DNA from: an uncultured Chryseobacterium sp.
GTDB lineage: Bacteria > Bacteroidota > Bacteroidia > Palsa-965
Reading direction: 5' to 3'
Assembly (NCBI GenBank): GCA_966211705.1
Contig: CBIHOC010000024.1
Coordinates: forward strand, 9,319-73,318
DNA: 64,000 nt
The notes below the pieces were generated by a model. The model was not told the origin of the DNA, did not search any database, and saw nothing but the letters and a program-made list of their open reading frames with translations. A program made the translations under genes and the position numbers. Within the stretch, counting starts at the first letter, position 1. The number at the start of each line of letters is the position of its first letter. Positions 11,800-56,417 of this stretch are shown here, piece by piece.

Positions 11800-12912
11800 T
11801 CAATGAATTACCTGCTCCGTAGCCGGAATGCCGCTGGGCAGGTAAATGGTGAAAACCGTGCCTTTCCCGGGTTCGCTCTTGAGGTCGATCAAACCGCCCA
11901 GGCGCTGGATGCCGTTCTTGACAAGGTAAAGCCCGAGCCCGGAACCCTGGGAACCGTCGCTGCCGCGGTAGAACATGTCGAAGATCTTGTCCTGGATCGC
12001 CGCGGGAATGCCGATGCCGTTGTCGGCGATTTCGATCTTTACGCCGTCGTTCGTGTCGGTGATCATGACGTTGAGGTAGGGGTTGGTGGAGGAACGGTCC
12101 TGGTACTTGACGGAATTTTCGATGACGTTTTGCAGGATCGAGTTGAGGATCTTGTCGTCGGAGAAAAATGTTTTGTGCGTGGCGACCTTGACGTTGACGA
12201 CGAGGCGTTCGAAGCCGGGCGTGAACTCGAGGCGTTCGAGAATGTTGTTCAGCGCCTGGCCGAAGTCGATCCGGCTGCTCACCAGGTGCGCATTTTTCAT
12301 CGCCATGGTTTCGATCAGCGACACGAGAATTTCGTCGAGCTTCTGCGTGCATTCCGAGATCATGCGTACGTACGCGGTGGTTTGCCGGAGATTTTCCTCG
12401 CGGCCTGCGAGGTTGGCAAGGCCCATGATGGACGTGAGCGGGCCGCGCAGGTCGTGGGTGGCTTTGTACACGAACGTGTTGAGCTCGTTGTTGGTGTTGA
12501 GCAGCTGCGCGAGCATTTCTTCCCGTTCGCGTTCCGCCACTTTTTTCTTCAGCGCGTTGGTGATCGCGGAAGGCAGGCGCATGAGATGGTCTTTCAGGAT
12601 GTAATCGTCGGCGCCGTCCTGGATAACCTGCACGGCGAATTCCTCGGAAACCGCGCCGGTCACCAGCAGGAACGGCACGCCGGGCCGCATTTCTTTGGCG
12701 ATCCTGAGCGCTTCGATGGAATTGAATTGAGGCAGCGAATGATCGGAAAGGATCACATCGGGCAGGAACTCGGCTATCGCCTGCACGTACTCGCCACGGC
12801 TGTCGGCAATGCGCTTCACAAAATCGAACCCTGCCTTCCGCAGCTCGCGCCCGATGAACTCGACGTCCGCGGGGTTATCCTCGAGGATCAGTATTTTCAG
12901 CGGCTCTCCCAT
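11800..12912 (-). CDS. Hybrid two-component protein: N-terminal receiver domain fused to a HisKA + HATPase_c histidine kinase
   Basis: ILILEDNPADVEF...D...LPDVILSDHSLP receiver. H-box ATHDLRGPL. G-boxes DNGIGIP and GSGLGLYLV. Start refined to MGEPLK at 12912. Confidence 0.8.
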   Translation of the reverse strand: MGEPLKILILEDNPADVEFIGRELRKAGFDFVKRIADSRGEYVQAIAEFLPDVILSDHSLPQFNSIEALRIAKEMRPGVPFLLVTGAVSEEFAVQVIQDGADDYILKDHLMRLPSAITNALKKKVAEREREEMLAQLLNTNNELNTFVYKATHDLRGPLTSIMGLANLAGREENLRQTTAYVRMISECTQKLDEILVSLIETMAMKNAHLVSSRIDFGQALNNILERLEFTPGFERLVVNVKVATHKTFFSDDKILNSILQNVIENSVKYQDRSSTNPYLNVMITDTNDGVKIEIADNGIGIPAAIQDKIFDMFYRGSDGSQGSGLGLYLVKNGIQRLGGLIDLKSEPGKGTVFTIYLPSGIPATEQVIH

Positions 12913-12919
12913 CTCACGT

Positions 12920-13369
12920 TCAGATTTTTCTCGGCATTTCATTGAGCAGCATCCAGTAGAGTCCAAGATCGGCCACTGCTTTCACAAAGTTTTCAAATTC
13001 CACAGGCTTCACGACATAGCTGTTGACGCCGAGGCGATAGCCTTCCACGAGGTCACGCTCTTCACGTGAAGAGGTCATGATCACGACGGGGATCGCTTTC
13101 ATCACGTCGTCGTTCTTCAGGATCCGCAACACTTCGAGCCCGTCCACCTTCGGCAGCTTGAGGTCGAGGATGATGAGCTTCGGAAGCGCCAGGCCCGTGC
13201 GGTGCTCGAACGGCCCGCGGCAGTAAATAAAGTCGAGCGCTTCCGCACCGTCCTTTACATGAAAGAGGTTGTTGACGAGGTGGTGTTTTTTCAGCGCGCG
13301 GACGGTAAGCTCGGCGTCGCTGGGATTGTCCTCGACAAGGAGGAGATCAACGTTGTGTGTTGTAATCAT
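12920..13369 (-). CDS. Single-domain CheY-like response regulator
   Basis: [15 protein letters not shown]...[16 protein letters not shown]...VVIMTSS. 149 aa with no output domain. Confidence 0.85.
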
Positions 13370-13372
13370 GGG

Positions 13373-14905
13373 TTAATTAGGATTAATTGCCGGGAGTGCA
13401 ACAAAAAATGACGCGCCTTTATCCACTTCTGCTTCCGCCCAGGCCCGCCCGCCGTGCCGCGATACGATACGCTGCACGATGGCAAGGCCTACGCCGGTTC
13501 CTTCAAACTCATCCATCGCATGCAAACGCTGGAACACGCCGAACAGCTTGTCCACGTACATCATGTCGAAACCTACGCCATTGTCTTTTACGCAAAAAAC
13601 CACTTCGCCGTTTTTTCGTTCCGAGGTAACCTCCACCACGGGTTTTTCTTTTTTGGAAGAATATTTCACCGCGTTGGAGATCAGGTTCAGCATCACCTGG
13701 TGCATCAGCCCGTAATCGACCTTCACCTTGTCGAGCTTGCCGACTTTTATTTCGGCATGATGCTGGAAACTTTTATTCAGTTCGATCAGCACGCCTTCCA
13801 CGAGCTGGTTCATGTCTTCCACCGATTTATCCAGCTCCTTGCGGCCCAGTCTCGAGAACGCGAGCAGGTCGTCGATGAGGCGGCCCATTTTTTCGGCGTT
13901 GTAACGGATCACACCGAGCAGGCGCCGTCCTTCGTCGTCCATCGAGTTCCCGTAATCTTCCTCCAGCATCGTTGCATAGCCGTTCACGGCGCGGAGGGGC
14001 GCGCGGAGGTCGTGGGAGACGGAATAAGTGAACGCCTCCAGCTCTTTGTTCAGCTGCAGGATGGCGTCTTCCTGCTTTTTCTGCTCGGTGATGTCTTCGG
14101 AGATCCCAAGCAGGAATTGCGGTTTCCCGTCTTCGCCCGTAACGGGAATTTTTTTGGTGTGCAGCCAGCGCATGCCATGCGCGCGGGTGCTGATCGGCTC
14201 TTCTTTGATGTCGACGAGCTTTCCTTTCTCCAGCACGTCGCGGTCTTTCGCGGTGAAAAATTCCGCTTCGTCCTTCGGGAAAAAATCGAAATCGTTCTTC
14301 CCGATCAGGTCGCTTTTTTTATGACCGAGAAGCTCTTCGCCGGCTTTGTTGAAACGGACAAAACGAAGGTCCTTCGCATCTTTCACGAAGATCATGTTGG
14401 GGATGTACTCGAGCACCGTGTCGAGAAATTTATTCGCCTGCTCGAGCGCGGCCTCGGTTTCCCTGCGCCATTTGAACATCATGTTGATGGCGGCATTCTG
14501 CGATTCGGAATGCACCTTTTCCAGCTCATCGACGATCCCGATCACTTCTTTCGGGTCGGAAGTGTAATCGGGGATAAAACGGTGAAGCGCTTTTTTCTGC
14601 GCCACATAAATCAGCACGAGATCGGTGGGCTGGATGCTTTCTTTCGGAATGCCGCCGTCGAGACGGTCCTCTTCCCACTTCCGGAGATTTTCTTCCTGCA
14701 CCTCCCTGTATGTGCCATCCTCCAGCTGACCGGCAAAATCCCGGAGCGATTTCATCGATTGCGGAATGAGCACCTCGTCGGGGACGGATGCAAAAAGCTT
14801 CATCAGCGGGAAGTCCATCTCGCGGGATATGCGCAGGCTTTCCCGTGCGGCTTCTTCCAACCGGGTGTCTTTAATGTAAGACAGGAATTTTATCAGTTTT
14901 TGCAT
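13373..14905 (-). CDS. PAS-domain sensor histidine kinase
   Basis: PAS-like segment (...IFVKDAKDLRFVRFNKAGEELLGHKKSDLIGKNDFDFF...). H-box SVSHDLRAPL. HATPase_c DNGVGFD...GTGVGLAIV. 510 aa. Confidence 0.85.
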   Translation of the reverse strand: MQKLIKFLSYIKDTRLEEAARESLRISREMDFPLMKLFASVPDEVLIPQSMKSLRDFAGQLEDGTYREVQEENLRKWEEDRLDGGIPKESIQPTDLVLIYVAQKKALHRFIPDYTSDPKEVIGIVDELEKVHSESQNAAINMMFKWRRETEAALEQANKFLDTVLEYIPNMIFVKDAKDLRFVRFNKAGEELLGHKKSDLIGKNDFDFFPKDEAEFFTAKDRDVLEKGKLVDIKEEPISTRAHGMRWLHTKKIPVTGEDGKPQFLLGISEDITEQKKQEDAILQLNKELEAFTYSVSHDLRAPLRAVNGYATMLEEDYGNSMDDEGRRLLGVIRYNAEKMGRLIDDLLAFSRLGRKELDKSVEDMNQLVEGVLIELNKSFQHHAEIKVGKLDKVKVDYGLMHQVMLNLISNAVKYSSKKEKPVVEVTSERKNGEVVFCVKDNGVGFDMMYVDKLFGVFQRLHAMDEFEGTGVGLAIVQRIVSRHGGRAWAEAEVDKGASFFVALPAINPN

Positions 14906-21929: not shown

Positions 21930-21963
21930 TTTGGCCCTCCCTGTAACCGATACCTGACCTCCC

Positions 21964-22713
21964 ATGATCAATGCTGTAATTGTTGAAGATGAAAAGAAAA
22001 GCCGCGAAGTGCTCGAGGCGCTGGTAAAAACCAACTGCCCCGAAGTGAACCTCGTCGGCAGCGCGGATTCCGTGGCCGGCGGCGTTGATCTCATCCGCAA
22101 AACCAATCCCCGCCTCGTGTTCCTCGACATCGAGATGGCCGACGGCAGCGGGTTCGACCTGCTCGAGCAGGTGCCCAACACCGGCTTCGAGGTGATCTTC
22201 ACCACCGCTTCCGACGCGCATGCCCTGCGCGCCATCAAGTACAGCGCGATCGATTATCTCCTCAAGCCGATCGACGCCGACGAGCTGAAAGCGGCGGTGG
22301 AAAAGATCAAAACCAGGCAGACGGTAAACGAGAACCTCGAAAATCTGAAATTCCTCCTGCAGAATTTCCGCCGCCCGAACGAGCAGTACACCAAGATCAC
22401 GCTGCCCACCGGGAATGCATACGAGATCGTGAATGTGAAAGACATCATCCGCTGCGAAGCCGACGGCAGCTACACGAGCTTCTTCCTCGAGAACAAAAAG
22501 AAGCTGCTCGTTTCCGCCAGCCTCAAGCATTACGAGGATCTTCTCCCGCCCGACGATTTTATCCGCGTGCACCATCACCACCTCATCAACATGAGCCACG
22601 TCGTACGTTTCCTGAAAACCGACGGAGGCTACGCCGTGATGAGCGACGGCACACAGATCGAAATTTCCCGCCGCAAAAAAGACGCATTCATCCAGCGGCT
22701 GAATAAGATCTGA
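21964..22713 (+). CDS. LytTR-family DNA-binding response regulator
   Basis: Receiver INAVIVEDEKKSREVL...VFLDIEMADGSGFDLL plus a C-terminal LytTR domain. 249 aa, adjacent to its kinase. Confidence 0.9.
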   Translation: MINAVIVEDEKKSREVLEALVKTNCPEVNLVGSADSVAGGVDLIRKTNPRLVFLDIEMADGSGFDLLEQVPNTGFEVIFTTASDAHALRAIKYSAIDYLLKPIDADELKAAVEKIKTRQTVNENLENLKFLLQNFRRPNEQYTKITLPTGNAYEIVNVKDIIRCEADGSYTSFFLENKKKLLVSASLKHYEDLLPPDDFIRVHHHHLINMSHVVRFLKTDGGYAVMSDGTQIEISRRKKDAFIQRLNKI

Positions 22714-39399: not shown

Positions 39400-41037
39400 T
39401 TGGTACGATCCATTTCCGCGATGATGTCCGTACGCAAGCCCCTCGCTGTAATCGTCAGCCTTTTCCTGCTCACCGCGCTGCATGCGCTTCCGGCGCGCGT
39501 GTACGTGCTGCAGCCGCAGGAAACGGAAACCGATCTCACCTCGTATTGCATGCTGCTGAGCGATCCCGGGAACAAGCTCGGCATTGAAGAGGTGCTTGCC
39601 GGCCGGAGTTCCGCCTTGTTCACGGAGAATAAATTGCACCAGCCGTTCCTGCAGGCCCATCCGCCCGGCTTCAATGGCTGGGTAAAGCTCAGCATCTGCA
39701 ACCCGGGCCAGTCCGCGCGGTCGATCTTTCTCTCCCCGAGCCGCGACGTCGATTCCGGCATGATCTACTGGAAGGAGCGCGACGGGCTGTATTCCGGGCA
39801 ATGGGGAACGCTGGTGAAAACATCCGGCCGCACCTACCCGCGCATCGGCATGACCATCGCCCCGCGCGATACGCTGCAGCTGCTGATGCGGATCCGCGGC
39901 GACGGCTTCAGCACGTTCAACAACCGCGACATATCCGTCACCGTCAGCGACCAGCAAACCTGGCTGAAGCAGGACGAATCGGCGCTGCTCATCTTCGGGA
40001 TCTTTTACGGCGTGCTGTTCGCGCTCATCTGCTATTCGTTCGCGGTGTATTTTGTCGTGCGCCGGCCCATTTATTTTTATTTCATCGCATTTATTTTTTC
40101 GGCGCTGCTCTTTTACATCAAGGAGAATGAGATCGGCGCGGCTTACATCTGGGGCGATAGCGCGCTGGTGTGGCTGAACAAATACGGGAACAACCTGCTG
40201 TTCGGCCCGCTGGCGATCGTGACGGGTTTTACCTTCTGCCGGAAATTTCTCCACCTCCGGCACTATTACCCGAAGCTCGACCGGGTGATCGCGGTGCTTT
40301 CGTATGTCCAGCTGTTTTCTTTTCTGCGCCTGTTCATCGGCCTCCACGAGCTGATGCGCTTCGTGCAGAACGGGCTGGTGGTGGTGGGAGTCGTTCTGCT
40401 GGTGGGCGGCGCGCTGGCGATGGCGCGGCGGAAAAATCCCGACGCCCGGTTGTTCCTCCTCGTGTTCCTGTTCGCGCTGGCCGGCATTGCGATCCACGCC
40501 CTGCGCTATTCGCAGCTGTTGCCGCAGAACGTATTCACCCAGTATGCCGCGCAGCTGGGCATCGGCATCACCGCTCTCGCTTTCGCGATGGCCATCGGCG
40601 CGCAGGTGCGGCAGATCAACAAGGCCAAGCGCGCTGCGGAGAAAGATGCGCTTGAAAAATCGAAAGAGATCGAACGGCTCACCAAAGAGCAGAACATTTT
40701 GCTCGAGCAGAAAGTGGAGGAGCGCACGCGCGAATTGCAGGAGGCGCAGGACGAGCTGCTGCGCCAGGAAAAGCTGGCCTCGCTCGGCAAGCTGGCCAAC
40801 CGCATCGCCCACGAAATGCAGAACCCGCTCAACTTCGTCAATAATTTTTCCGAGCTGTCTGCCGAGCTCATCGCGGAATACATGTCCGCCACCACCGAAG
40901 AGCGCCTCCACATTCTCAACCAGCTCAAAGAGAATATGGAGAAGATCAACCACCACGGCCAGCGCGCCGACCAGATCGTGAAAAGCATGCTGCAGCATCT
41001 GAACGAGCGGAAGGAAGGGAGTTTGTTCGGGGAATGA
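39400..41037 (+). CDS. 7TM-DISM receptor (extracellular 7TMR-DISMED2 domain + 7 TM helices) with a cytoplasmic HisKA dimerisation/phospho-acceptor domain and no HATPase_c catalytic domain
   Basis: Signal peptide, about 190-aa extracellular domain, seven hydrophobic helices, coiled coil, H-box LANRIAHEMQNPL. The ORF terminates about 60 aa after the H-box, with no N/G1/G2 boxes. Confidence 0.7.
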   Translation: MVRSISAMMSVRKPLAVIVSLFLLTALHALPARVYVLQPQETETDLTSYCMLLSDPGNKLGIEEVLAGRSSALFTENKLHQPFLQAHPPGFNGWVKLSICNPGQSARSIFLSPSRDVDSGMIYWKERDGLYSGQWGTLVKTSGRTYPRIGMTIAPRDTLQLLMRIRGDGFSTFNNRDISVTVSDQQTWLKQDESALLIFGIFYGVLFALICYSFAVYFVVRRPIYFYFIAFIFSALLFYIKENEIGAAYIWGDSALVWLNKYGNNLLFGPLAIVTGFTFCRKFLHLRHYYPKLDRVIAVLSYVQLFSFLRLFIGLHELMRFVQNGLVVVGVVLLVGGALAMARRKNPDARLFLLVFLFALAGIAIHALRYSQLLPQNVFTQYAAQLGIGITALAFAMAIGAQVRQINKAKRAAEKDALEKSKEIERLTKEQNILLEQKVEERTRELQEAQDELLRQEKLASLGKLANRIAHEMQNPLNFVNNFSELSAELIAEYMSATTEERLHILNQLKENMEKINHHGQRADQIVKSMLQHLNERKEGSLFGE

Positions 41038-41232
41038 CAACTCTATTTAGAATCATTTCGAATAAGCCCCATTTTGCTGAAATTCAGTGAGCTTCCTCAT
41101 AATTCCGGAAAATTTCTTCCCCCTGTAAACTTGATACAACCCTGCACGGTGAGTACATTTGTCCCCGCCTGCCGGTTTCCGAATCCCATTTAAATCATCG
41201 CCGGCGGAGACACGTCTAATCTCGTTCGGTAT

Positions 41233-41925
41233 ATGACCAAATTCCTCACCTCCTCCATCGGCAAAAAAACGGTGATGGCCCTTTCCGGCCTGTTCCTTAT
41301 CCTTTTCCTGCTGGAGCACCTGTACACCAACGTACATCTTTTCTTCGGCGACGGCGGCGAAGAATTCAACGAAATGTCTCACTCCATGGTGCGCATGATC
41401 ATCATCCGCATCATCGAGATCGTCCTCTTCCTCGCCATCGTGGTCCACGTGGCGCAGGCCATCCTGCTCACCCGCGAGAACGCACAGGCCCGCCCGATCA
41501 AATACGCCATCAACCGCACCGACCAGACGAGCGTGTGGATCTCCCGCAACATGGGCTTCACGGGGAGCGTCATATTCTTCTTTATCGTAGTTCACCTCTG
41601 GCAGTTCTTCCTGCCTTACCGCGTCACCGGCACCGTCGGTGCGGAAGGACATGAAACGCTGGCCCAGGAAGTGGTCGAAGCGCTGGAAAACCCGCTTTAC
41701 GCCGGCATTTACCTCGTGTCGGTTATTTCCCTTGCCTTCCACCTCAGCCACGCGCTGCAGTCGGCCGCGCAAACGCTCGGGGTCAACAACAAAAAATACG
41801 CGCCCCTGTGGCACAAGCTTTCCATGGGCCTCGCATGGCTGATGGGCATCGGCTTCGGCTCTTTCCCGGTCCTGTTCTACGGCGCGAAGCTGCTGAACAA
41901 AGACCTCCTGAACTGGGCGATGTAA
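41233..41925 (+). CDS. sdhC: Succinate dehydrogenase / fumarate reductase cytochrome b subunit, b558 family
   Basis: 230 aa and five TM helices with conserved His ligands, directly upstream of sdhA and sdhB as in Bacteroidota. Confidence 0.85.
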   Translation: MTKFLTSSIGKKTVMALSGLFLILFLLEHLYTNVHLFFGDGGEEFNEMSHSMVRMIIIRIIEIVLFLAIVVHVAQAILLTRENAQARPIKYAINRTDQTSVWISRNMGFTGSVIFFFIVVHLWQFFLPYRVTGTVGAEGHETLAQEVVEALENPLYAGIYLVSVISLAFHLSHALQSAAQTLGVNNKKYAPLWHKLSMGLAWLMGIGFGSFPVLFYGAKLLNKDLLNWAM

Positions 41926-48086: not shown

Positions 48087-51000
48087 TTGAAACAGCGTTT
48101 ACCTGCTTTCATTTTATCCCTTTTCATCGCCACGACGCTGTTCGCGGAGGACCGTTACTGGGTGGGCGGATCGGGAAGCTGGCATGATGCCGCGCACTGG
48201 TCCGGCGTTCCTTACGGTAAAGGCGGTGCAGGCGTTCCCACTGCGAATGACCGGGTCTATATCGGTTACGCCGGAGGACATCAGCACGACACGATCACCG
48301 TCAACGGCATCGCCGACTGTGGAGGAATTAATTATAACCGCACGCCTTCGGAGATCGGTATTGAAAATGCCGCCATCCTGCTCGCTGGTAACGGCGAGAT
48401 CAACGTCAACGGTTCGTTGTATTTCGCAAAACCCTTCGCCGACCTCTTTACCGGCACCTGGAAATTCCTCGATCGCAACGCATGTTTCCGCGACAGCTCC
48501 GTTCCTGAGATCGAAACTTCCGGCCACGTTTTCACCGGCAAAATCGTATTCGCTTCACCGGAATCGACCGAATCTTCCGGCTGCCTGAACAGCTGGATGG
48601 TCAAGGATCAGCTGTATGTGAACAATACTATCGAAGCTCAGAAAGGATCGCAGCTCATTGTTCCGGAGAACGCAAAAGTCGCCGCGCCGAATGTTGCCCG
48701 TCATGCTGAAGGCGAACTGCTCGTACAGGGTGGAACCGTGATCGACGGCAGCACGCAGCGTGTCCATTCCCCCAATTCCCCGCAAAGCCATACCGTCACC
48801 ACGGTCATCGTTCCCAACCTCTGCAACGGCAACTGCAACGCCACGGCCACCGCAGTAGTAACGGGCGGTTCCGGCAGCTTCTCGTACCAGTGGAGCAACG
48901 CGCAGACCACGCAGACGGCCACGAACCTATGCGCCGGCACATACCTGGTCGTTGTGACCGACCTGGTCAACGGCGACCAGATCCCCGCTTTCGCGATCGT
49001 CACCGACCCGCCGCCGCTCGTCATCTTCTTCTTCAACACACCCGCCACCTGCTTCGGCAACTGCGACGGCACCAGCAGCGCGACCGTCGCCGGCGGAACT
49101 CCCGGCTACACGTATGCCTGGTCTCCCGCGCCCGGCGGCGGACAGGGAACGCCCAACGCCACCGGCCTCTGCGCAGGCATATACACGCTGACGGTGACCG
49201 ACAGCAACGGCTGCCAGATCAGCATGCAGTCGATCATCCTTCAGCCCGCGCTGCTCATTGACAATGGAACATTCACCAACGTCTCCTGCTTCGGGTTTTG
49301 CGACGGCACGGCAAGCGTAGCGCCCACCGGGGGCACCGCGCCATATACCTACGACTGGCTGCCCGGCAGCCCGATCGGGGACGGCACGCCTAACATCTCC
49401 AACCTTTGCCCCGGAACGTACACGTGCAACATTACGGATGCGAACGGCTGCACGGATTCGTATGTCGCGACGATCACGCAGCCGCAACCTCTGCAGGCCA
49501 CGCTCAGCAGCACCAACGCATCCTGCTTCGGCGTCTGCGACGGGACTGCCTCTTCGACCGTTTCCGGCGGCACCACGCCGTACAATTACAACTGGATGCC
49601 GGGGAACCTGAACACGCCCAACATCACAGGGCTGTGCGCCGGTACCTACACGCTTACGGTAACCGACAACAACGGTTGTGTGACGACGCAACAGGTAACC
49701 GTCACGGAACCCAACCAGCTGAATGTCACCCCCACAGGAATAAACATTGCCTGCTTTGCGACGTGTACGGGAATAGCCTCGGCCAACGCATCCGGCGGAA
49801 CACCCGGGTATGCTTATTCCTGGGCGCCGGCCGGCGGCACCGGGCCTGTGGCAAACAACCTTTGCCCGGATACATATACGGTCACGGTCACCGACACGAA
49901 CGGGTGCACGACAAACGGCACCGTGGTCATTACGGAACCCACGCAGCTTTTCGGAAATGCAGCCGGAACGGACATCACCTGTTTCGGGGCCTGCAATGGA
50001 TCAGCGACGGCAAACCCTTCAGGAGGAACCGGGCCATACACGTATCTGTGGATGCCCGGGAACCTGACGACACAAACGATTTCAAATTTATGCCCCGGAA
50101 CCTATACGGTTACCGTCACCGATGCGAATAACTGCTCCGACCCGGAAGTGGTGACCATCACCGAGCCGACGCAGCTGCAGACCAATGCGGTGTCGAACAT
50201 GGTTTCCTGTTTCGGCGCCTGCGACGGCACGGCTACAGCGAGTCCCAGCGGCGGCACACCGGGATACACGTATCTCTGGATGCCCGGCGGGCAAACGACG
50301 CCTTCCGTTTCCGGGTGGTGCCCGGGAACGTACACGCTTACGGTAACCGACGCGAACGGCTGCACACGCAACCAGGTGATCACGATCACGCAGCCGAACC
50401 AGCTTACGGTAGGCATCAACGCGACTTCCATTTCCTGCAACAGCGCCTGCAGCGCCGTGCTTTCCGCCACCGTCTCGGGCGGAACACCGGTGTTCACGTA
50501 TTCGTGGGCGCCGGGCGGGCAGACGACGCCCAGCATCAGCAACCAATGCGCCGGCAGCTACACGGTCGACATTACCGACGCAAACGGGTGCACCACGACG
50601 AACAGCATTTCCATTACCCAGCCCACGCCTTTCCAGATCACCACGACGGTTACCGACGTCACCTGCAACAACCTCTGCAACGGCGCGATCACGGTGAGCG
50701 TTTCGGGATCTTCCCCGCCTTACACCTACAGCTGGGCGCCGGGCGGGCAAACCACGCCGACCATTAACGGATTATGCGCAGGATCGTACACGCTTACGAT
50801 CAACGACGCGAGCGGTTGCGACAGCACGATCGTAGTTACGGTAACCGAGCCGACACAGATCACGACCAACGCCACGTTCACCAATGCGACCTGTTCGGGC
50901 GTGTGCAACGGAACAGCTGCGGCAGTGCCGTCCGGCGGCACGGGACCATATACATACCTGTGGATGCCGGGGTCGCTCAATACGCCTTCGGTAAGCGGCC

Positions 51001-54000
51001 TGTGCGCAGGAACGTACACGCTGACGGTGACGGACGCGAACGGCTGCACGGCGAACCAGACTATTACCATCACGCAGCCGCCACCGCTCTCTGCGATCGT
51101 TACCAGCTCTACAGCAAGCTGCGGAAGCTGCAACGGTTCGGCAACGGTAAGTGTAAGCGGCGGAACTTCCCCGTATGCCTATTTCTGGACACCGGCCGGC
51201 GGCACGAACCCGACCGCAACCAATCTTTGCATCGGCAACTACACCTGCACGGTAACCGACGGGCAGGGCTGCACCACCACCGCGACGGTGACCATCGTGC
51301 AGGTGGTGAACATTACGATCACACCGTCGGCCAGCACGCCGAGCTGTTTCGGAAGCTGTGATGCCGTGGCAAGCGCCAACGCTGCGGGCGGCGCGCCACC
51401 GTATACGTACCTGTGGCAACCGGGGAACGTCGTTTCGCAAAACCTCACCGGGCTTTGCGCAGGCTCGTACACAGTTACCGCAACCGACGCGAACGGCTGC
51501 TTCAATTCCGACACGATCATTTTTACCAACCCGGCCCAGCTCGCGCCGACGCCTTCATTCACGAACGTAACGTGTAACGGCGCATGCGACGGAACCGCAT
51601 CCGTAAGCGTAACGGGCGGAACAGGCGGATACAGCTACCTGTGGTCGCCGGGAAATCAAACGACGGCTTCCATCTCCGGGCTTTGCCCGGGAACGTATTC
51701 GGTCACGATCGATGATGCGAACGGTTGTGATACGACTGTCGTTTTCAACATTACCGAACCGACGCTGATCACCGCAAACGAAACGAGCACACCGGCGAAC
51801 TGCACGCTCTGCGACGGAAGCATCACCACCTCGACATCCGGCGGTGTCGGGCCGTACACCTACAGCTGGGCGCCCGGCGGACAAACCACGCCATCCGTGA
51901 CGAATTTATGTCCCGGCGTTTACACCGTTACCATTACCGACGCGTCAGGCTGCCCGGTCAACATACCGATCGCAGTCAGCAACCTCAACGGACCGACACT
52001 TTCTTCATCCTCCACCAACGTCAGCTGTAACGGAGGTTCAGACGGAACGGCTACTGTGGTTGTTACCGGCGGCGCTGCACCGTTCACCTATGACTGGACA
52101 CCCGGCAGTCCCGCCGGCGATGGAACTCCGTCAGTGACAGGTCTTACTGCCGGAACATGGTTCGTGCAGGTCACCGACGCGGTCGGTTGCATCACGTTCG
52201 AGGCGTACACGATCACCGAGCCCCAGCCTTTGCAGGCGAACGCGACGATCACGAACGCCAGCTGCGGCGGCATTTGCGACGGTTCGATCTCGCTCGTCCC
52301 ATCGGGCGGAACAGGGCCGTTCACGTACAGCTGGACCGGCCCGTCGAGCTTCACGGCCACAACGGCAACCATTACCGGCCTCTGCGCAGGAACCTACACG
52401 GTGGACATTACCGACGCCAACAACTGCGTGGTGAACATGACGTTCGCCGTGACGGAACCGCTCACCGTTTCACCGAACGTCACATACACGGATATTACGT
52501 GTAACGGGGCAAGCAACGGAACAGCGCAGGCCAACGTCACGGGAGGAACCGCGCCATACAGCTATAGCTGGACGTCGGGCCAGCTCGTTTCTTCGGTCGT
52601 CAACCTTAGCCCGGGAAGTTATACCGTGACCGTGACCGATGCGAATGGTTGCAGCTCGCAGCAGAGCATTACAATAACAGAACCGCCTGCGCTCGTCAGC
52701 GTCATCACGTCGACCAATGCGCTCTGCAACGGCAGCTGCGACGGAACGGCATCGGTTTTTGCAGCAGGCGGATCGCCGGGATATGCGTTCCTGTGGTCGC
52801 CGGGCGGGCAAACCACTTCCGCGGTGAACGGGTTGTGCGCAGGTGCATATAGCGTCACCACTTCCGACACGAACGGCTGCACGTCGGTGCAATCGGTTAC
52901 GATCTTACAGCCCAATGCAATGACGTTGTCCACGAGCGTAAATGCGGTTTCCTGTTTCGGAAATTGCGACGGTGTGGCAATGGCGAACGCGAACGGCGGA
53001 ACACCGTCTTATTCATATAGCTGGGCGCCTTCCGGTGGAACAGCAGCAACCGCGACCGCGCTTTGCCCCGGCATTTACACGGTAACGCTTACGGATGCGA
53101 ACGGCTGCGTGCAGACAGCGACGGCGAACGTCACACAACCTGCGCAGCTCCAGTCGAACACAGGATTCACAAGCCCGCAATGCAACGGCAACTGCGACGG
53201 CGCTGCCTGGGCCAACCCGATCGGCGGGACCGGGCCGTTTACGTACCTGTGGGCAACCGGCGGGCAGACGACAGACACCATCACCAACCAATGCCCGGGA
53301 ACATACACCGTCACGGTGCGCGATGCGAACGGCTGCCAGGATGTTCAGACGGTGAATGTGCTCGCCACAACCCCCATGACCTTGTCGGTCGCCAGCGCGC
53401 CGGCCAACTGCGGATCCTGCAACGGCACGATCAACGTTGTTCCTTCGGGCGGAACAGGACCGTACACCTATTCATGGACCGGCGGCCTTCCGCCGCAGGC
53501 GAACCAGGTGAACGTCTGCGCGGGCGTTTATACCGTGACGGTTATCGACGCGATGTTATGCTCCGATACATTCGTCATCGCGCTCAACAACTCGGGCGGC
53601 CCGACCGGCGAAACCGTCGTCACTACCCCGGTCAGCTGTCCTTCCGGTTGCGACGGTACGGCAACTGTCACACCGGTCGGCGGAACTTCGCCGTACACGT
53701 ATTCCTGGATCCCCGGCGGGCAGACGGTGAACAGCCTCACGAACATGTGCGGCGGCAGCTACTTCCTGCAAGTGACCGACTCGAACGGCTGCATCCGCTT
53801 TTCGCCCGTGACGATCGCTGAACCCGCACCGATACTTGCCAACGCATTTGTGACCAACGCCTCCTGCTCCGGCATCTGCGACGGCGCGATCACCGTTACG
53901 CCTTCGGGCGGAACGGGCCCGTACACGTACGTATGGGCGCCCGGCGGGCAAACGACTGCGACGATCAGCAACCTTTGCACGGGAACGTACACCGTTTACA

Positions 54001-56417
54001 TCACCGACGCCGGCGGTTGTGTCGACAGCGCAACTGCCACGGTGAATCCATGGAACTCGCTTATTGCAGCCATTACATCGGCAAACCCAACCTGCAGCAA
54101 TCTCTGCAACGGAACTGCAACAGCCAACATTTCATCGGGAACTGCGCCGTTCATCTTCCAGTGGAATGATCCGCTCGGGCAAAGCGCGCAAACGGCCACA
54201 GGACTTTGCGCAGGAACTTATTCGGTGCTGGTGACGGATGCGGCAGGATGCAATTCCACAATCCCCGTTACACTTACCGGTCCCACGCCGATCGTAATTA
54301 ACCCTGCGATCACGCCGACGACCTGCGGACAGTGCAATGGAAGCGTTACGCTCAATGCCGCGGGCGGCACTGCGCCGTATTCGTACACGTGGAGCAACGG
54401 CGCGCCGACCTCTACCGTAAGCAACCTCTGTGCAGGCGTCTACACAGTGGACGTTTCGGATGCAACCGGCTGCACGGCTTCATTCACGATCAACATCAGC
54501 AGCAGCGGCGGACCGACAGCGACGAACGGAACGGTGACCAATGCTTCCTGCAGCGGCGTTTGCGACGGCGCGATCACGGTTGCGCCCGCCGGCGGAATTC
54601 TTCCGTACACCTACAACTGGTTGCCGGGCGGGCAGACCACGCCATCCGTCACCAGCCTCTGCGCGGGAACGTACACGGTGCAGGTCATGGATTCGGCCGG
54701 CTGCGTGCGCGTTGACAGCTTCAACATTACCGCACCGCCTGCAATTCTCCCGAACCAATCGATCACGAACGCGGATTGCGGGGTTTGCAACGGAAGCATC
54801 GTGCTTAACCCGACCGGCGGCACCGGGCCCTACACCTACAACTGGCTTCCCGGCGGACAAACAACATCTTCGATCACCGGCCAGTGCGGCGGCCTTTACA
54901 CGGTCACGATCACGGATGCGACCGGTTGCTCCGTCACGCAATCGGTCCCGGTGAGCAGCCTGAATTCCACGACAGCGATCACCGTGTCGGGCACAGATCT
55001 CAGCTGCGACGGAACATGCGATGGCTCAGCAACCGTTACGATCACCAGCGGAACCGGGCCGTTTACATTCAGCTGGAGTAATGGCGCGACGAACGACACG
55101 CTCACAGGTCTCTGCGCCGGAACGTATCTCGTGCAGGTCACGGACGGCGCCGGTTGCATAACGACGGCGCAGGTGACGATCACGCAGCCGCCGCCGCTTG
55201 CGGGTTCTTTCCTCTTCGTGCAGGATGAGCTTTGCACCGGCGCATGCGATGGTTTCATTACGGCAATCCCTTCCGGCGGAACGTTGCCGTACCAGTATAG
55301 CTGGAGCACTTCACCGGCACAAACCACGGCGACTGCGGTGAACCTGTGCAACGGCATATACACAGTGACAATAACGGATGCGAACGGCTGCTCCATCGTG
55401 CAAAGCGACACCATCGTTTCCCCGGTCGTGCTGGTGCAAGGCGTGCCCGTTGTGACGGACGCAATCTGCAGCAACTCGCCCGACGGCGCGATCGATATTA
55501 CGATCACCGGCGGCGCATTGCCGTACACGTATTCATGGACCGGTCCTGCGCCGTTCGTGGCGAATACGGAAGACGTCACCGGCCTCTATGCGGGAACTTA
55601 TACGGTGGTCATTACCGATGCGAACGGTTGCCAGGTTTCGGACACGATCACCGTCAACGCGACGACGACGGTAATTGCGAATGCAGGCAGCGACACTACT
55701 TCCTGCCAGCTGGGAAGTGTGACGCTTGACGGAACGGGAAGCATAAACGCGCTGTCGTACCAATGGATCGAGCTTCCGTCGATGACGGTGGTCGGAACGA
55801 CGGCGAACCCGACGGTGAACCCGCCGGCAGGAGCGACATCGTATGTGCTCATCGTGACGAACGGCATCTGCACGGATTCCGACACGGTAACGGTCACCAC
55901 GCTGACACCGCCGGTTGCCAACGCAGGCCCGGACGTGGAAATTATTACGGGCATGACGGCAACGATCGGCGGAACACCGACCGGTCCTTCCGGCTCGACA
56001 TACGCATGGGGCCCGTCGACCGGCCTGGGCGACCCGACGCAGGGAAACCCGGTGGCATCGCCGTCCGCGACGACAACTTACACCGTGGTCGTCACGGATG
56101 CGAACGGCTGCACCGACAGCGACACGATGACGGTGATCGTGGTTCCCGAGATCGATTTCCCGAACGGCTTCACGCCGAACGGCGACGGCATCAACGACGT
56201 GTGGGTGATCGACAACATTTATCTTTTCCCGAATTGCCAGGTGGAAGTGTACAACCGCTGGGGTGAATTGCTTTTCGTATCCATCGGCTACAACACGCCG
56301 TGGGATGGAAGGTATGACGGGAAAGATCTTCCTGTCGGCACATATTATTACATCATCCAGCTGAACGACCCGATGTTCCCTGAAGTCTACACCGGTCCGA
56401 TCACGATCATCCGTTAA
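48087..56417 (+). CDS. Giant (2776 aa) SprB-repeat cell-surface adhesin with T9SS type-B (CHU_C) C-terminal sorting domain
   Basis: Signal peptide. More than 30 tandem ~75-80-aa repeats of the form C.G.CDG.A...SGGT.PYTY.W.PGG.TT......LC.GTYT.TVTD.NGC. C-terminus EIDFPNGFTPNGDGINDVWVI...VYNRWGELLF...PWDGRYDGK. A PorP/SprF gene follows. Confidence 0.9.
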   Translation: MKQRLPAFILSLFIATTLFAEDRYWVGGSGSWHDAAHWSGVPYGKGGAGVPTANDRVYIGYAGGHQHDTITVNGIADCGGINYNRTPSEIGIENAAILLAGNGEINVNGSLYFAKPFADLFTGTWKFLDRNACFRDSSVPEIETSGHVFTGKIVFASPESTESSGCLNSWMVKDQLYVNNTIEAQKGSQLIVPENAKVAAPNVARHAEGELLVQGGTVIDGSTQRVHSPNSPQSHTVTTVIVPNLCNGNCNATATAVVTGGSGSFSYQWSNAQTTQTATNLCAGTYLVVVTDLVNGDQIPAFAIVTDPPPLVIFFFNTPATCFGNCDGTSSATVAGGTPGYTYAWSPAPGGGQGTPNATGLCAGIYTLTVTDSNGCQISMQSIILQPALLIDNGTFTNVSCFGFCDGTASVAPTGGTAPYTYDWLPGSPIGDGTPNISNLCPGTYTCNITDANGCTDSYVATITQPQPLQATLSSTNASCFGVCDGTASSTVSGGTTPYNYNWMPGNLNTPNITGLCAGTYTLTVTDNNGCVTTQQVTVTEPNQLNVTPTGINIACFATCTGIASANASGGTPGYAYSWAPAGGTGPVANNLCPDTYTVTVTDTNGCTTNGTVVITEPTQLFGNAAGTDITCFGACNGSATANPSGGTGPYTYLWMPGNLTTQTISNLCPGTYTVTVTDANNCSDPEVVTITEPTQLQTNAVSNMVSCFGACDGTATASPSGGTPGYTYLWMPGGQTTPSVSGWCPGTYTLTVTDANGCTRNQVITITQPNQLTVGINATSISCNSACSAVLSATVSGGTPVFTYSWAPGGQTTPSISNQCAGSYTVDITDANGCTTTNSISITQPTPFQITTTVTDVTCNNLCNGAITVSVSGSSPPYTYSWAPGGQTTPTINGLCAGSYTLTINDASGCDSTIVVTVTEPTQITTNATFTNATCSGVCNGTAAAVPSGGTGPYTYLWMPGSLNTPSVSGLCAGTYTLTVTDANGCTANQTITITQPPPLSAIVTSSTASCGSCNGSATVSVSGGTSPYAYFWTPAGGTNPTATNLCIGNYTCTVTDGQGCTTTATVTIVQVVNITITPSASTPSCFGSCDAVASANAAGGAPPYTYLWQPGNVVSQNLTGLCAGSYTVTATDANGCFNSDTIIFTNPAQLAPTPSFTNVTCNGACDGTASVSVTGGTGGYSYLWSPGNQTTASISGLCPGTYSVTIDDANGCDTTVVFNITEPTLITANETSTPANCTLCDGSITTSTSGGVGPYTYSWAPGGQTTPSVTNLCPGVYTVTITDASGCPVNIPIAVSNLNGPTLSSSSTNVSCNGGSDGTATVVVTGGAAPFTYDWTPGSPAGDGTPSVTGLTAGTWFVQVTDAVGCITFEAYTITEPQPLQANATITNASCGGICDGSISLVPSGGTGPFTYSWTGPSSFTATTATITGLCAGTYTVDITDANNCVVNMTFAVTEPLTVSPNVTYTDITCNGASNGTAQANVTGGTAPYSYSWTSGQLVSSVVNLSPGSYTVTVTDANGCSSQQSITITEPPALVSVITSTNALCNGSCDGTASVFAAGGSPGYAFLWSPGGQTTSAVNGLCAGAYSVTTSDTNGCTSVQSVTILQPNAMTLSTSVNAVSCFGNCDGVAMANANGGTPSYSYSWAPSGGTAATATALCPGIYTVTLTDANGCVQTATANVTQPAQLQSNTGFTSPQCNGNCDGAAWANPIGGTGPFTYLWATGGQTTDTITNQCPGTYTVTVRDANGCQDVQTVNVLATTPMTLSVASAPANCGSCNGTINVVPSGGTGPYTYSWTGGLPPQANQVNVCAGVYTVTVIDAMLCSDTFVIALNNSGGPTGETVVTTPVSCPSGCDGTATVTPVGGTSPYTYSWIPGGQTVNSLTNMCGGSYFLQVTDSNGCIRFSPVTIAEPAPILANAFVTNASCSGICDGAITVTPSGGTGPYTYVWAPGGQTTATISNLCTGTYTVYITDAGGCVDSATATVNPWNSLIAAITSANPTCSNLCNGTATANISSGTAPFIFQWNDPLGQSAQTATGLCAGTYSVLVTDAAGCNSTIPVTLTGPTPIVINPAITPTTCGQCNGSVTLNAAGGTAPYSYTWSNGAPTSTVSNLCAGVYTVDVSDATGCTASFTINISSSGGPTATNGTVTNASCSGVCDGAITVAPAGGILPYTYNWLPGGQTTPSVTSLCAGTYTVQVMDSAGCVRVDSFNITAPPAILPNQSITNADCGVCNGSIVLNPTGGTGPYTYNWLPGGQTTSSITGQCGGLYTVTITDATGCSVTQSVPVSSLNSTTAITVSGTDLSCDGTCDGSATVTITSGTGPFTFSWSNGATNDTLTGLCAGTYLVQVTDGAGCITTAQVTITQPPPLAGSFLFVQDELCTGACDGFITAIPSGGTLPYQYSWSTSPAQTTATAVNLCNGIYTVTITDANGCSIVQSDTIVSPVVLVQGVPVVTDAICSNSPDGAIDITITGGALPYTYSWTGPAPFVANTEDVTGLYAGTYTVVITDANGCQVSDTITVNATTTVIANAGSDTTSCQLGSVTLDGTGSINALSYQWIELPSMTVVGTTANPTVNPPAGATSYVLIVTNGICTDSDTVTVTTLTPPVANAGPDVEIITGMTATIGGTPTGPSGSTYAWGPSTGLGDPTQGNPVASPSATTTYTVVVTDANGCTDSDTMTVIVVPEIDFPNGFTPNGDGINDVWVIDNIYLFPNCQVEVYNRWGELLFVSIGYNTPWDGRYDGKDLPVGTYYYIIQLNDPMFPEVYTGPITIIR

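What the first reader, a model, noticed from the sequence alone, without database searches (positions are those of the whole stretch)
39400..41037. 7TM-DISM receptor with a HisKA domain but no ATPase domain
The protein has the full extracellular 7TMR-DISMED2 and 7TM architecture, a coiled coil and a canonical H-box (HEMQNPL). It then stops about 60 residues later, with no N, G1 or G2 boxes. It is followed by a ~195-nt non-coding gap. Either it is a naturally catalytic-domain-less phosphoacceptor that needs a partner kinase in trans, or it is a 3'-truncated pseudogene.
Basis: seen in the sequence. Interest (0 to 1): 0.5.

Follow-up and report, generated by a model that had tools for sequence, protein, structure and literature searches.

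The report
Conserved sensor kinase without its ATPase
A membrane sensor of a soil-type Bacteroidota bacterium keeps the phosphate-accepting half of a histidine kinase but naturally lacks the ATP-using half; the short form is conserved in relatives and belongs to a large unstudied family, so it is a working gene and not a broken one.

Summary
The ORF at 39400..41037 (real start probably ATG 39421, 538 aa) encodes a RetS-like beta-sandwich ectodomain, a 7TMR-DISM membrane domain, a coiled coil and a complete DHp hairpin with H-box HEMQNPL. It has no ATPase domain. The 195-nt gap downstream holds no ATPase remnant in any frame.

The pseudogene reading is refuted:
- Orthologues at 93%, 62% and 28% identity stop at the same place and share a tail.
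- dN/dS is 0.15 overall and 0.09 in the DHp plus tail.
- The stop position is kept although the stop codon and the downstream DNA differ.

The gene belongs to a wider ATPase-less lineage, with at least 61 clusters at 50% identity. Most members are TPR-TM-DHp proteins that end in ...GTAHEFFE. In 67 metagenomic loci every copy stops 0-18 residues after this motif, and no ATPase domain lies nearby.

Against 184 full-length relatives, the H-box and the helix after it are invariant, while the nine residues before the histidine are remodelled. No partner gene is linked.

My best reading is a signal-gated, kinase-less transmitter that acts on receiver domains phosphorylated by other kinases, as a phosphatase or phosphoryl acceptor. 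This mechanism is inferred, not shown. Catalytic-domain-less kinases are a known database category, but this family appears undescribed in the held literature.

The parts
39421..41037 (+). Coding sequence of the ATPase-less 7TM-DISM receptor (538 aa plus TGA stop). The listed ORF starts at TTG 39400, but ATG 39421 is the start shared with orthologues.
   Evidence: exactly this 538-aa protein is on record from 3 contigs.
39421..39483 (+). N-terminal signal or anchor helix (residues 1-21).
   Evidence: AlphaFold model, helix 6-21. The sequence is the hydrophobic MMSVRKPLAVIVSLFLLTALHA.
39499..39951 (+). Extracytoplasmic beta-sandwich (residues 27-177) with the 7TMR-DISMED2 / RetS-like fold.
   Evidence: Pfam PF07696 E 0.007, below its cut-off. 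Foldseek matches the RetS periplasmic domain: 2xbz_A E 3e-4 and 3jyb_A E 1e-3, TM 0.48-0.51.
39952..40620 (+). Seven-helix membrane domain (residues about 178-400), 7TMR-DISM_7TM.
   Evidence: Pfam PF07695 E 3e-34. Seven long helices in the model.
40621..40770 (+). Coiled-coil signalling helix (residues about 401-450), continuous with TM7 and DHp helix 1.
   Evidence: The model has a single helix 376-489. The motif LEQKVEERTRELxE is conserved in relatives.
40771..41007 (+). Complete DHp (HisKA) hairpin: helix 1 to residue 489, turn, helix 2 at residues 492-529. The H-box is H464-E-M-Q-N468-P-L, with the His codon at 40810-40812.
   Evidence: H, E and N are invariant in 60 short and 184 full-length relatives.
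40996..41034 (+). C-terminal tail HLNERKEGSLFGE, taking the place of the DHp-to-ATPase linker. F536 is conserved in at least 90% of 63 ATPase-less relatives. Residues 531-538 are predicted disordered.
   Evidence: near-invariant F536; pLDDT below 50 for residues 531-538.
41035..41037 (+). Stop codon TGA. The closest relative has TAA at the same position, with unalignable DNA after it.
41038..41232 (.). Ordinary intergenic region before sdhC (41233..41925). It holds no ATPase remnant. TACATTTG at about 41152-41159 fits the Bacteroidota -7 promoter consensus TAnnTTTG, which is weak evidence on its own.

Best explanation
The gene encodes a functional membrane receptor that has naturally lost the ATP-binding catalytic domain of a histidine kinase. 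It keeps the sensor (beta-sandwich ectodomain and 7TM domain), the signalling coiled coil and a complete DHp dimerisation/phosphoacceptor hairpin.

Shown here:
- The short form is conserved, selected, and part of a large ATPase-less lineage with its own C-terminal tail.

Inferred:
- Because it cannot autophosphorylate, it most likely works on receiver domains that other kinases have phosphorylated.
- Ligand-driven motion of the 7TM domain and coiled coil would gate the DHp. The DHp would then either dephosphorylate the response regulator (through the HExxN motif) or take the phosphoryl group back onto His464, as a sink or relay.
- The short disordered aromatic/acidic tail may tether a partner.

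In effect it would be an 'off-only' or cross-regulating input into pathways driven by its many full-length paralogues. These share the identical helix-1 face after the histidine.

I put about 0.93 on 'natural functional short form, not a pseudogene' and about 0.5 on the phosphatase/phosphoryl-acceptor mechanism.
For: Conservation of the short form:
- P0001 (93% identity, 538 aa), P0002 (62%, 538 aa, in two genomes of about 4.8-5.0 Mb) and P0004 (28%, 540 aa, six or more variants of the same length) all stop at the same place with related tails.
- Their genomic contexts differ, and none has an ATPase ORF downstream.

Selection:
- dN/dS against the 93% orthologue is 0.148 overall, 0.064 in the 7TM domain and 0.089 in the DHp plus tail.
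- The stop position is kept although the stop codon and downstream DNA differ.

Family:
- A profile of DHp plus tail, run against 1.84 billion representatives, returns 61 ATPase-less clusters among the best 150. All end in ...GTAHEFFE-like tails.
- No HATPase_c is among the families listed for 63 members. 52 of the 63 carry TPR repeats and 3 carry the 7TM-DISM domain.
- In 67 metagenomic loci every copy stops 0-18 residues after the motif.

Chemistry retained:
- H, E (H+1), N (H+4) and H+5 to H+13 are invariant in 60 short forms, as in 184 full-length forms.
- H-10 to H-2 is near-invariant in full-length forms (SLGELTAGI) but switched in short forms (AFGVMASRV). The window has SLGKLANRI.
- The acidic residue at H+1 and the T/N at H+4 are the reported kinase and phosphatase determinants (bioRxiv 10.64898/2026.02.27.708494).

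Structure:
- The model shows a continuous TM7-coil-DHp helix and a complete hairpin.

Precedents:
- RetS, another 7TMR-DISM receptor, acts on GacS as a phosphoryl acceptor and transmitter phosphatase (PMC5992135).
Against: - No biochemical data exist, and no response regulator or partner is genetically linked. There is no REC within about 17 kb in the window, none in L001, L003, L004, L009 or L010, and REC in only 5 of 67 family loci. The target is therefore unknown.
- An invariant His and Glu would equally fit phosphorylation in trans by another kinase's catalytic domain.
- My reading of the H-10 to H-2 segment as the catalytic-domain docking surface rests on general knowledge of HisKA structures, not on a test here.
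- The window protein is intermediate at those positions, and its orthologue P0002 keeps Gly at H-3.
- Placement of the window's DHp inside the large ATPase-less clade has only about 40% bootstrap support.
Confidence: 0.5

Rival explanations
1. Split or heteromeric kinase. His464 is phosphorylated in trans by the catalytic domain of another protein. The donor could be a full-length paralogue with which it forms DHp heterodimers, or a stand-alone ATPase protein. The receptor then passes the phosphoryl group to a response regulator like a normal kinase.
For: - The DHp is 55-70% identical to that of many full-length paralogues, and the H-box and following helix are identical.
- The invariant His and the Glu at H+1, the kinase determinant, are retained.
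- Precedents: the EnvZ domains work when split, and 3.66% of SMART HisKA proteins lack HATPase and were proposed as split kinases (PMC3591291).
- A ChrS variant with a frameshifted catalytic domain is functional and heterodimerises with HrrS (PMC9491836).
Against: - No orphan ATPase ORF lies in the 64-kb window. The only two ATPase domains belong to complete kinases of another H-box type, about 26 kb away.
- None lies within +/-8 kb of five related genes.
- None lies in 467 kb around 67 family members.
- The segment before the histidine, strictly conserved in kinase-competent relatives, is remodelled in the short forms. Gly to Arg at H-3 occurs in 54 of 60 short forms, including the window.
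- The rest of the genome could not be searched.
Confidence: 0.27
2. Pseudokinase scaffold or inhibitor. The receptor binds a bona fide kinase through its membrane or DHp parts and changes that kinase's activity without any phosphoryl chemistry of its own. This resembles RetS mechanism 3 or RocA.
For: - RetS inhibits GacS autophosphorylation independently of phosphotransfer (PMC5992135).
- RocA is a multi-pass membrane pseudokinase whose histidine is dispensable, and a version lacking the catalytic domain complements when overexpressed (PMC7028121).
- The target is an orphan gene with no linked regulator.
Against: His, Glu (H+1), Asn (H+4) and the next nine residues are invariant across 60 ATPase-less clusters that are otherwise only about 20% identical. 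That is not expected if the catalytic histidine were dispensable.
Confidence: 0.15
3. A 3'-truncated pseudogene, a frameshifted gene or an assembly artefact.
For: - Most relatives are 650-720 aa with an ATPase domain.
- Many short HisKA-only database entries are indeed fragments of full-length kinases.
Against: - The stop position is the same in orthologues down to 28% identity and in several independent assemblies.
- dN/dS is 0.09-0.15.
- The truncation lies exactly at the domain boundary, followed by a conserved tail.
- No ATPase remnant lies downstream in any frame.
- The stop is conserved despite a different stop codon and different downstream DNA.
Confidence: 0.03

Closest known systems
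RetS / LadS of Pseudomonas aeruginosa (7TMR-DISM sensor kinases)
   Same: Same sensor architecture: a 7TMR-DISMED2-type beta-sandwich (the model matches RetS structures 2xbz and 3jyb), a 7TM domain and a HisKA DHp. RetS works mainly without using its own kinase activity, taking phosphoryl groups from, dephosphorylating and inhibiting GacS (PMC5992135).
   Different: RetS and LadS keep a HATPase_c domain and carry receiver domains. This protein ends right after the DHp. Sequence similarity to RetS is limited to fold level (15-17% identity). No GacS-like partner is identified.
'Incomplete histidine kinases' lacking HATPase (P2CS class) / putative split kinases
   Same: HisKA present and HATPase absent. 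The HE/DxxN/T motif is retained, as in the 1.7% of SMART HisKA proteins singled out as possible split bifunctional kinases (PMC3591291; bioRxiv 10.64898/2026.02.27.708494).
   Different: That class is a bookkeeping category mixing fragments, pseudogenes and real genes. Here the short form is shown to be conserved and selected, and to be part of a coherent lineage with a specific tail and a remodelled pre-histidine segment. No separate ATPase partner was found nearby.
EnvZ domain A (isolated DHp) and engineered or evolved catalytic-domain-less kinases (ChrS_CA-fs)
   Same: A DHp without a catalytic domain can still be biologically active. From my own knowledge (Zhu et al. 2000, PNAS), the isolated EnvZ DHp has phosphatase activity. 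The evolved ChrS with a frameshifted catalytic domain changes signalling and heterodimerises with its paralogue (PMC9491836).
   Different: Those are laboratory constructs or a laboratory-evolved mutant. This one is a natural, ancient, family-wide architecture.
RocA (Streptococcus pyogenes) and DivL-type histidine pseudokinases
   Same: Multi-pass membrane kinase homologues that regulate another kinase rather than phosphorylating a regulator themselves (PMC7028121).
   Different: RocA and DivL keep a (degenerate) catalytic domain and do not need the histidine. Here the catalytic domain is gone and the H-box is invariant.
Spo0B / ChpT phosphotransferases
   Same: DHp-like four-helix-bundle proteins that shuttle phosphoryl groups between receiver domains without autokinase activity (own knowledge).
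   Different: They are soluble, keep a degenerate ATPase-like alpha/beta domain and have no sensor. This protein is a membrane receptor with no such domain.

Membership tests
7TMR-DISM receptors | 7TMR-DISM_7TM membrane domain (PF07695). | tested here: met
   E 3.3e-34, 119 bits against a cut-off of 29, residues 197-400 of the 545-aa form. Seven helices in the model.
7TMR-DISM receptors | Extracytoplasmic 7TMR-DISMED2 (or DISMED1) domain before the 7TM domain. | tested here: met
   By sequence it is below the cut-off (PF07696 E 0.007, 16.7 against 22 bits). The modelled beta-sandwich matches the RetS periplasmic domain (Foldseek E 3e-4 and 1e-3, probability 1.00, TM 0.48-0.51). The feature is met by fold and borderline by sequence.
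HisKA-family sensor histidine kinase (functional kinase) | DHp domain with a phosphoacceptor H-box. | tested here: met
   HEMQNPL. Pfam HisKA E 9.5e-5, just under the cut-off. There are 54-60% DHp identities to many kinases. PDB matches are FixL and ZraS at E 1e-5. The model has a helical hairpin.
HisKA-family sensor histidine kinase (functional kinase) | HATPase_c catalytic domain with N, G1, F and G2 boxes. | tested here: not met
   No Pfam or NCBIfam hit. The protein ends 9 residues after DHp helix 2. There is no remnant downstream in any frame. It should therefore not be filed as a kinase.
HisKA-family sensor histidine kinase (functional kinase) | ATP-dependent autophosphorylation. | not testable with these tools
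   This needs biochemistry. It is expected to be absent in the isolated protein.
Incomplete histidine kinase lacking HATPase (P2CS 'iHK') | HisKA present, HATPase absent, in a complete gene. | tested here: met
   The gene is internal to contigs up to 91 kb (window protein) and 4.8 Mb (P0002).
Split histidine kinase | A separate protein supplying the ATPase domain, usually encoded nearby. | tested here: not met
   No orphan ATPase lies in the 64-kb window, in five related loci or in 467 kb around 67 family members. The rest of the genome could not be tested.
ATPase-less DHp lineage with C-terminal aromatic/acidic tail (defined here) | The protein ends 0-18 residues after a tail of the type H-x3-G-[TK]-x3-4-[FLY]-[FL]-[DEG], directly after DHp helix 2. 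| tested here: met
   The window ends ...HLNERKEGSLFGE. It aligns with P0004 ...YLREGKGEELFDN, P0066 ...HLREGTGLDLFDN and the TPR forms ...HTRAGTAHEFFE. F536 is conserved in at least 90% of 63 members. The window lacks the family's conserved Gly, having R530 at that column.
ATPase-less DHp lineage with C-terminal aromatic/acidic tail (defined here) | The DHp core groups with the other ATPase-less forms when the tail is excluded. | tested here: inconclusive
   In a neighbour-joining tree of 244 DHp cores, 59 of 60 short forms make one pure clade. Bootstrap is 48% for a clade of at least 55 short forms and 40% for the window lying inside it. The TPR subclade has 96%.
Spo0B / ChpT-type phosphotransferase | DHp-like bundle plus a degenerate ATPase-like alpha/beta domain; soluble. 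| tested here: not met
   No domain follows the DHp, and the protein is a 7TM membrane protein.

The most novel reading that the evidence does not exclude
The window gene is the 7TM-DISM version of a previously unrecognised class of two-component element in Bacteroidota. These would be orphan, sensor-coupled DHp modules that have permanently given up autokinase activity and act as ligand-gated phosphatases or phosphoryl acceptors/relays for receivers phosphorylated by other kinases. They would use a conserved disordered C-terminal aromatic/acidic motif (...GTAHEFFE, or ...GSLFGE here) to recruit their partner. This is comparable in principle to the C-terminal NWETF tether of chemoreceptors or the W-acidic tail of WalK (PMC9087282). 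The same DHp-tail module would have been combined with two unrelated sensor types, TPR and 7TM-DISM.
Probability: 0.35. Interest if true: 0.7.

Novelty: new variant of a known kind. Interest (0 to 1): 0.5.

Why it matters
Histidine kinases without a catalytic domain are usually dismissed in genome annotation as fragments or pseudogenes. Here one is shown to be conserved and selected. It is also one member of a large, coherent family (at least 61 clusters at 50% identity, common in soil and rhizosphere metagenomes). That family keeps every residue needed for phosphoryl chemistry and regulator docking but has remodelled the part that normally faces the ATPase.

If the inferred mechanism is right, Bacteroidota have many receptors whose only output is to remove or divert phosphoryl groups. 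That would be a dedicated negative or cross-talk input layer in two-component networks, and it would need to be included when pathways are reconstructed from genomes.

The family also gives an experimentally simple natural system: a membrane sensor plus a bare DHp. It could be used to study how a DHp is gated without the complication of the catalytic domain.

Tried and rejected
- **ATPase remnants downstream.** I translated 40900-41300 in six frames and ran a catalytic-domain HMM with all filters off. Nothing was found.
- **Orphan ATPase in the window.** The only two ATPase domains belong to complete kinases with another H-box type, SHDLRAPL and THDLRGPL.
- **The 159-aa gene right after the P0002 orthologue as a detached ATPase.** It is a small secreted-type protein with no similarity to the domain.
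- **Organism and isolate orthologues through genome contigs.** Only distant DHp matches in other phyla turned up.
- **Profile search in the word-indexed protein database.** It returned only proteins of 100-183 aa, mostly fragments of full-length kinases. Its only use was to pick out tail-bearing examples.
- **P0241, the top hit of the representative search, as a possible short-long fusion.** It is a tandem fusion of two complete kinases.
- **Conserved neighbours.** None was found in 22 lineages, apart from tandem TPR-type paralogues. A REC ORF lies directly downstream in one locus only, L024.
- **Sigma-70 promoter and terminator scan.** It was uninformative, because Bacteroidota promoters are not covered.
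- **RedE of Myxococcus as a precedent.** It was rejected because RedE keeps a HATPase_c domain.
- **Hik36/Hik43 as a precedent.** This is a split CheA-type kinase, not a HisKA type.
- **First literature query.** It was badly specified and returned dihydropyridine papers.
Full report
**1. What is there**

The ORF 39400..41037 (+) exists. Orthologues and public gene calls start at ATG 39421, giving 538 aa with an N-terminal hydrophobic helix.

Pfam finds 7TMR-DISM_7TM strongly (E 3e-34). It finds HisKA (E 9.5e-5) and 7TMR-DISMED2 (E 0.007) just below their curated cut-offs, and no HATPase_c. NCBIfam gives only partial matches to the H-box region of many kinase models. An AlphaFold model built on 51 sequences has mean pLDDT 82.4. 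It shows:
- a beta-sandwich at residues 27-177;
- seven membrane helices;
- one uninterrupted helix at 376-489 (TM7, coiled coil, DHp helix 1), a two-residue turn, and helix 2 at 492-529;
- a disordered end at 531-538.

Foldseek matches the beta-sandwich to the RetS periplasmic domain (2xbz and 3jyb, E 3e-4 and 1e-3, TM about 0.5). The DHp resembles those of FixL, ZraS and ThkA. His464 (codon 40810-40812) sits in HEMQNPL, and the protein ends 74 residues later.

The 195-nt gap to sdhC (41233) is AT-richer than the ORF (45% against 59% GC). It has no ATPase motif in any frame. A catalytic-domain HMM built from 80 full-length relatives finds nothing there. Its only hits in the window are two complete kinases at 11.8-14.9 kb.

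**2. Not a pseudogene**

The closest relatives have the same length. P0001 is 93% identical and 538 aa. P0002 is 62% identical, 538 aa, and found in two genomes of about 4.8-5.0 Mb. P0004 is 28% identical, 540 aa, with six or more sequence variants of that length.

All three stop at the same alignment position and have related tails:

| Protein | C-terminal tail |
|---|---|
| window | ...MLQHLNERKEGSLFGE |
| P0002 | ...MFAHLRERKDQSPFGEKNPGNE |
| P0004 | ...MFKYLREGKGEELFDNFGNSLL |

Their surroundings differ and none has an ATPase ORF:
- window: sdhCAB downstream;
- P0002: gldB/gldC and a PKD protein upstream, and a small secreted-type protein downstream;
- P0004: a convergent ThiF-like gene.

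Nei-Gojobori dN/dS against the 93% orthologue is 0.148 overall, 0.064 in the 7TM domain and 0.089 in the DHp plus tail. Against P0002, synonymous sites are saturated.

DNA similarity between the window and the 93% orthologue ends exactly at the stop codon. That codon is TGA in one and TAA in the other, and the downstream DNA is unalignable.

**3. A family, not a one-off**

P0066 is a complete TPR-TM-HisKA gene followed by a convergent gene. It ends ...MQQHLREGTGLDLFDN, the same kind of tail on a different sensor.

I ran a profile of DHp plus tail against 1.84 billion representative proteins. Among the best 150, it returned 61 clusters (50% identity) that lack any ATPase motif and end in ...IVKQLQEHxRxGTAHEFFE plus 0-16 residues. 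These are mostly 480-600 aa with a signal peptide.

Pfam on 63 members gives HisKA in 54, TPR_12 in 52 and 7TMR-DISM_7TM in 3. HATPase_c is not among the listed families. The 7TM-DISM version in the window is therefore the rarer architecture.

A scan of metagenome contigs for GTA[HQ][EQ][FY]FE gave 72 loci. In 67 of them the H-box and tail lie in one ORF, and every one stops 0-18 residues after the motif. The catalytic-domain HMM finds no hit in the 467 kb of these loci, and a receiver HMM finds hits in only 5. No neighbour gene is conserved across 22 lineages, except tandem paralogues.

P0004 (short) and P0003 (full length, 666 aa) are 37% identical over 503 residues, up to the end of helix 2. 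They diverge exactly at YLREG / HSRTG.

**4. What changed in the DHp**

I compared 60 short and 184 full-length DHp cores column by column.

| Segment | Full-length forms | Short forms | Window |
|---|---|---|---|
| H, E (H+1), N (H+4), H+5 to H+13 | (I)QNPLNFVNNFS, invariant | invariant, same sequence | same |
| H-10 to H-2 | S-L-G-E-L-T-A-G-I, near-invariant | A-F-G-V-M-A-S-R-V | S-L-G-K-L-A-N-R-I, intermediate |

Gly at H-3 is present in 184 of 184 full-length forms. Arg takes its place in 54 of 60 short forms. Several helix-2 positions also differ (H+31, H+37).

From general knowledge of HisKA structures, the receiver docks on the membrane-distal half, after the histidine. The catalytic domain approaches the histidine and the part before it during autophosphorylation. 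I did not test this mapping here. The pattern fits retention of the regulator-facing catalytic surface and release or re-use of the ATPase-facing one.

With the tail removed, a neighbour-joining tree puts 59 of 60 short forms in one pure clade. The TPR subclade has 96% bootstrap. The larger clade has only 48%, and the window's inclusion 40%. A single origin followed by sensor swapping is therefore suggested but not established.

**5. Mechanism**

Without a catalytic domain the protein cannot autophosphorylate.

The invariance of His, Glu and Asn argues that phosphoryl chemistry persists. The acidic residue at H+1 is the reported kinase determinant, and T/N at H+4 is the phosphatase determinant. 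This speaks against a pure scaffold such as RocA, whose histidine is dispensable.

The absence of any linked ATPase and the remodelled pre-histidine segment argue mildly against a simple split kinase. That idea has precedents, however, and the rest of the genome is unseen.

I therefore favour a ligand-gated, kinase-less transmitter that dephosphorylates, or takes phosphoryl groups from, receivers phosphorylated by other kinases. RetS, the best-studied 7TMR-DISM receptor, does this to GacS. The short disordered aromatic/acidic tail is conserved and may be a docking motif. WalK's W-acidic tail is a precedent for a kinase tail that binds its regulator (PMC9087282, listed). That last point is speculation.

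**6. Comparison and novelty**

HisKA proteins without HATPase are a recognised database category, 'incomplete' kinases. They make up 3.66% of SMART HisKA proteins, of which 1.7% keep the HE/DxxN/T motif.

In the held literature I found no description of this Bacteroidota lineage, its tail, or the switch before the histidine. That search is limited to open-access text.

I file the gene as an incomplete histidine kinase and a 7TMR-DISM receptor, not as a kinase, because the defining ATPase domain was tested for and is absent. I rate it a new variant of a known kind, with interest 0.5.

**7. Context**

The window comes from a gliding Bacteroidota genome. It carries a SprB-repeat adhesin with a CHU_C signal, T9SS sorting tails, rpoN and sdhCAB.

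Noticed in passing
window 33342-38856: A 5.5-kb segment holds two large ORFs with no Pfam match: 33462..36299 (945 aa) and 36347..38767 (806 aa). The segment is absent from the close relative L003, whose flanks are 90-91% identical in DNA. L003 has 1.7 kb of other genes there. The 806-aa protein has an internal duplication (N half against C half, 29% identity over 234 aa, E 2e-19).
   Followed up: partly
window 41035-41037 and L003 7008-7010: DNA similarity between the window and its 93% orthologue ends exactly at the stop codon (TGA against TAA). The downstream DNA is unalignable, so L003 is apparently not followed by sdhC.
   Followed up: partly
window 38860-39312 (+): A 150-aa gene lies directly upstream of the receptor and is conserved with it in L003. 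Its only match is a weak one to an NTF2-like family (DUF6841, E 0.011). It is not found next to the 62% orthologue.
   Followed up: partly
window 11800-14905 (-): A two-component cluster: PAS-HisKA-HATPase (13373..14905), a stand-alone receiver (12920..13369) and a receiver-HisKA-HATPase hybrid (11800..12966). The H-boxes SHDLRAPL and THDLRGPL are of a different type from the target's.
   Followed up: partly
window 18936-22713 (+): A Reg_prop/Y_Y_Y/His_kinase (PF06580) sensor of 997 aa whose ATPase domain is only weakly detected (HATPase_c E 2e-4, below the cut-off). A LytTR response regulator follows it (21964..22713).
   Followed up: partly
window 48087-56417 (+) and 58752-62885 (-): A 2776-aa SprB-repeat protein with a CHU_C type IX secretion signal, and a 1377-aa protein with an eCIS core domain.
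   Followed up: no
L024 1-1420: In one metagenomic locus a receiver-domain ORF starts 11 nt after the stop of a TPR-type ATPase-less gene. This is the only such case among 67 loci.
   Followed up: no
L011-L082 (for example distances -24 to +116 from the short-form gene): In 6 of 22 lineages a second TPR-type paralogue lies directly next to the ATPase-less gene on the same strand. No ATPase domain is detectable in the locus.
   Followed up: partly
protein P0241 (1456 aa, representative search): A tandem fusion of two complete 7TM-DISM histidine kinases in one ORF.
   Followed up: partly
model of window 39421-41034: The best whole-model Foldseek hits are to human Wntless (E 2e-5, TM 0.28, rmsd about 21 A). 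This probably reflects only the shared layout of a beta-sandwich plus a multi-helix membrane domain.
   Followed up: no
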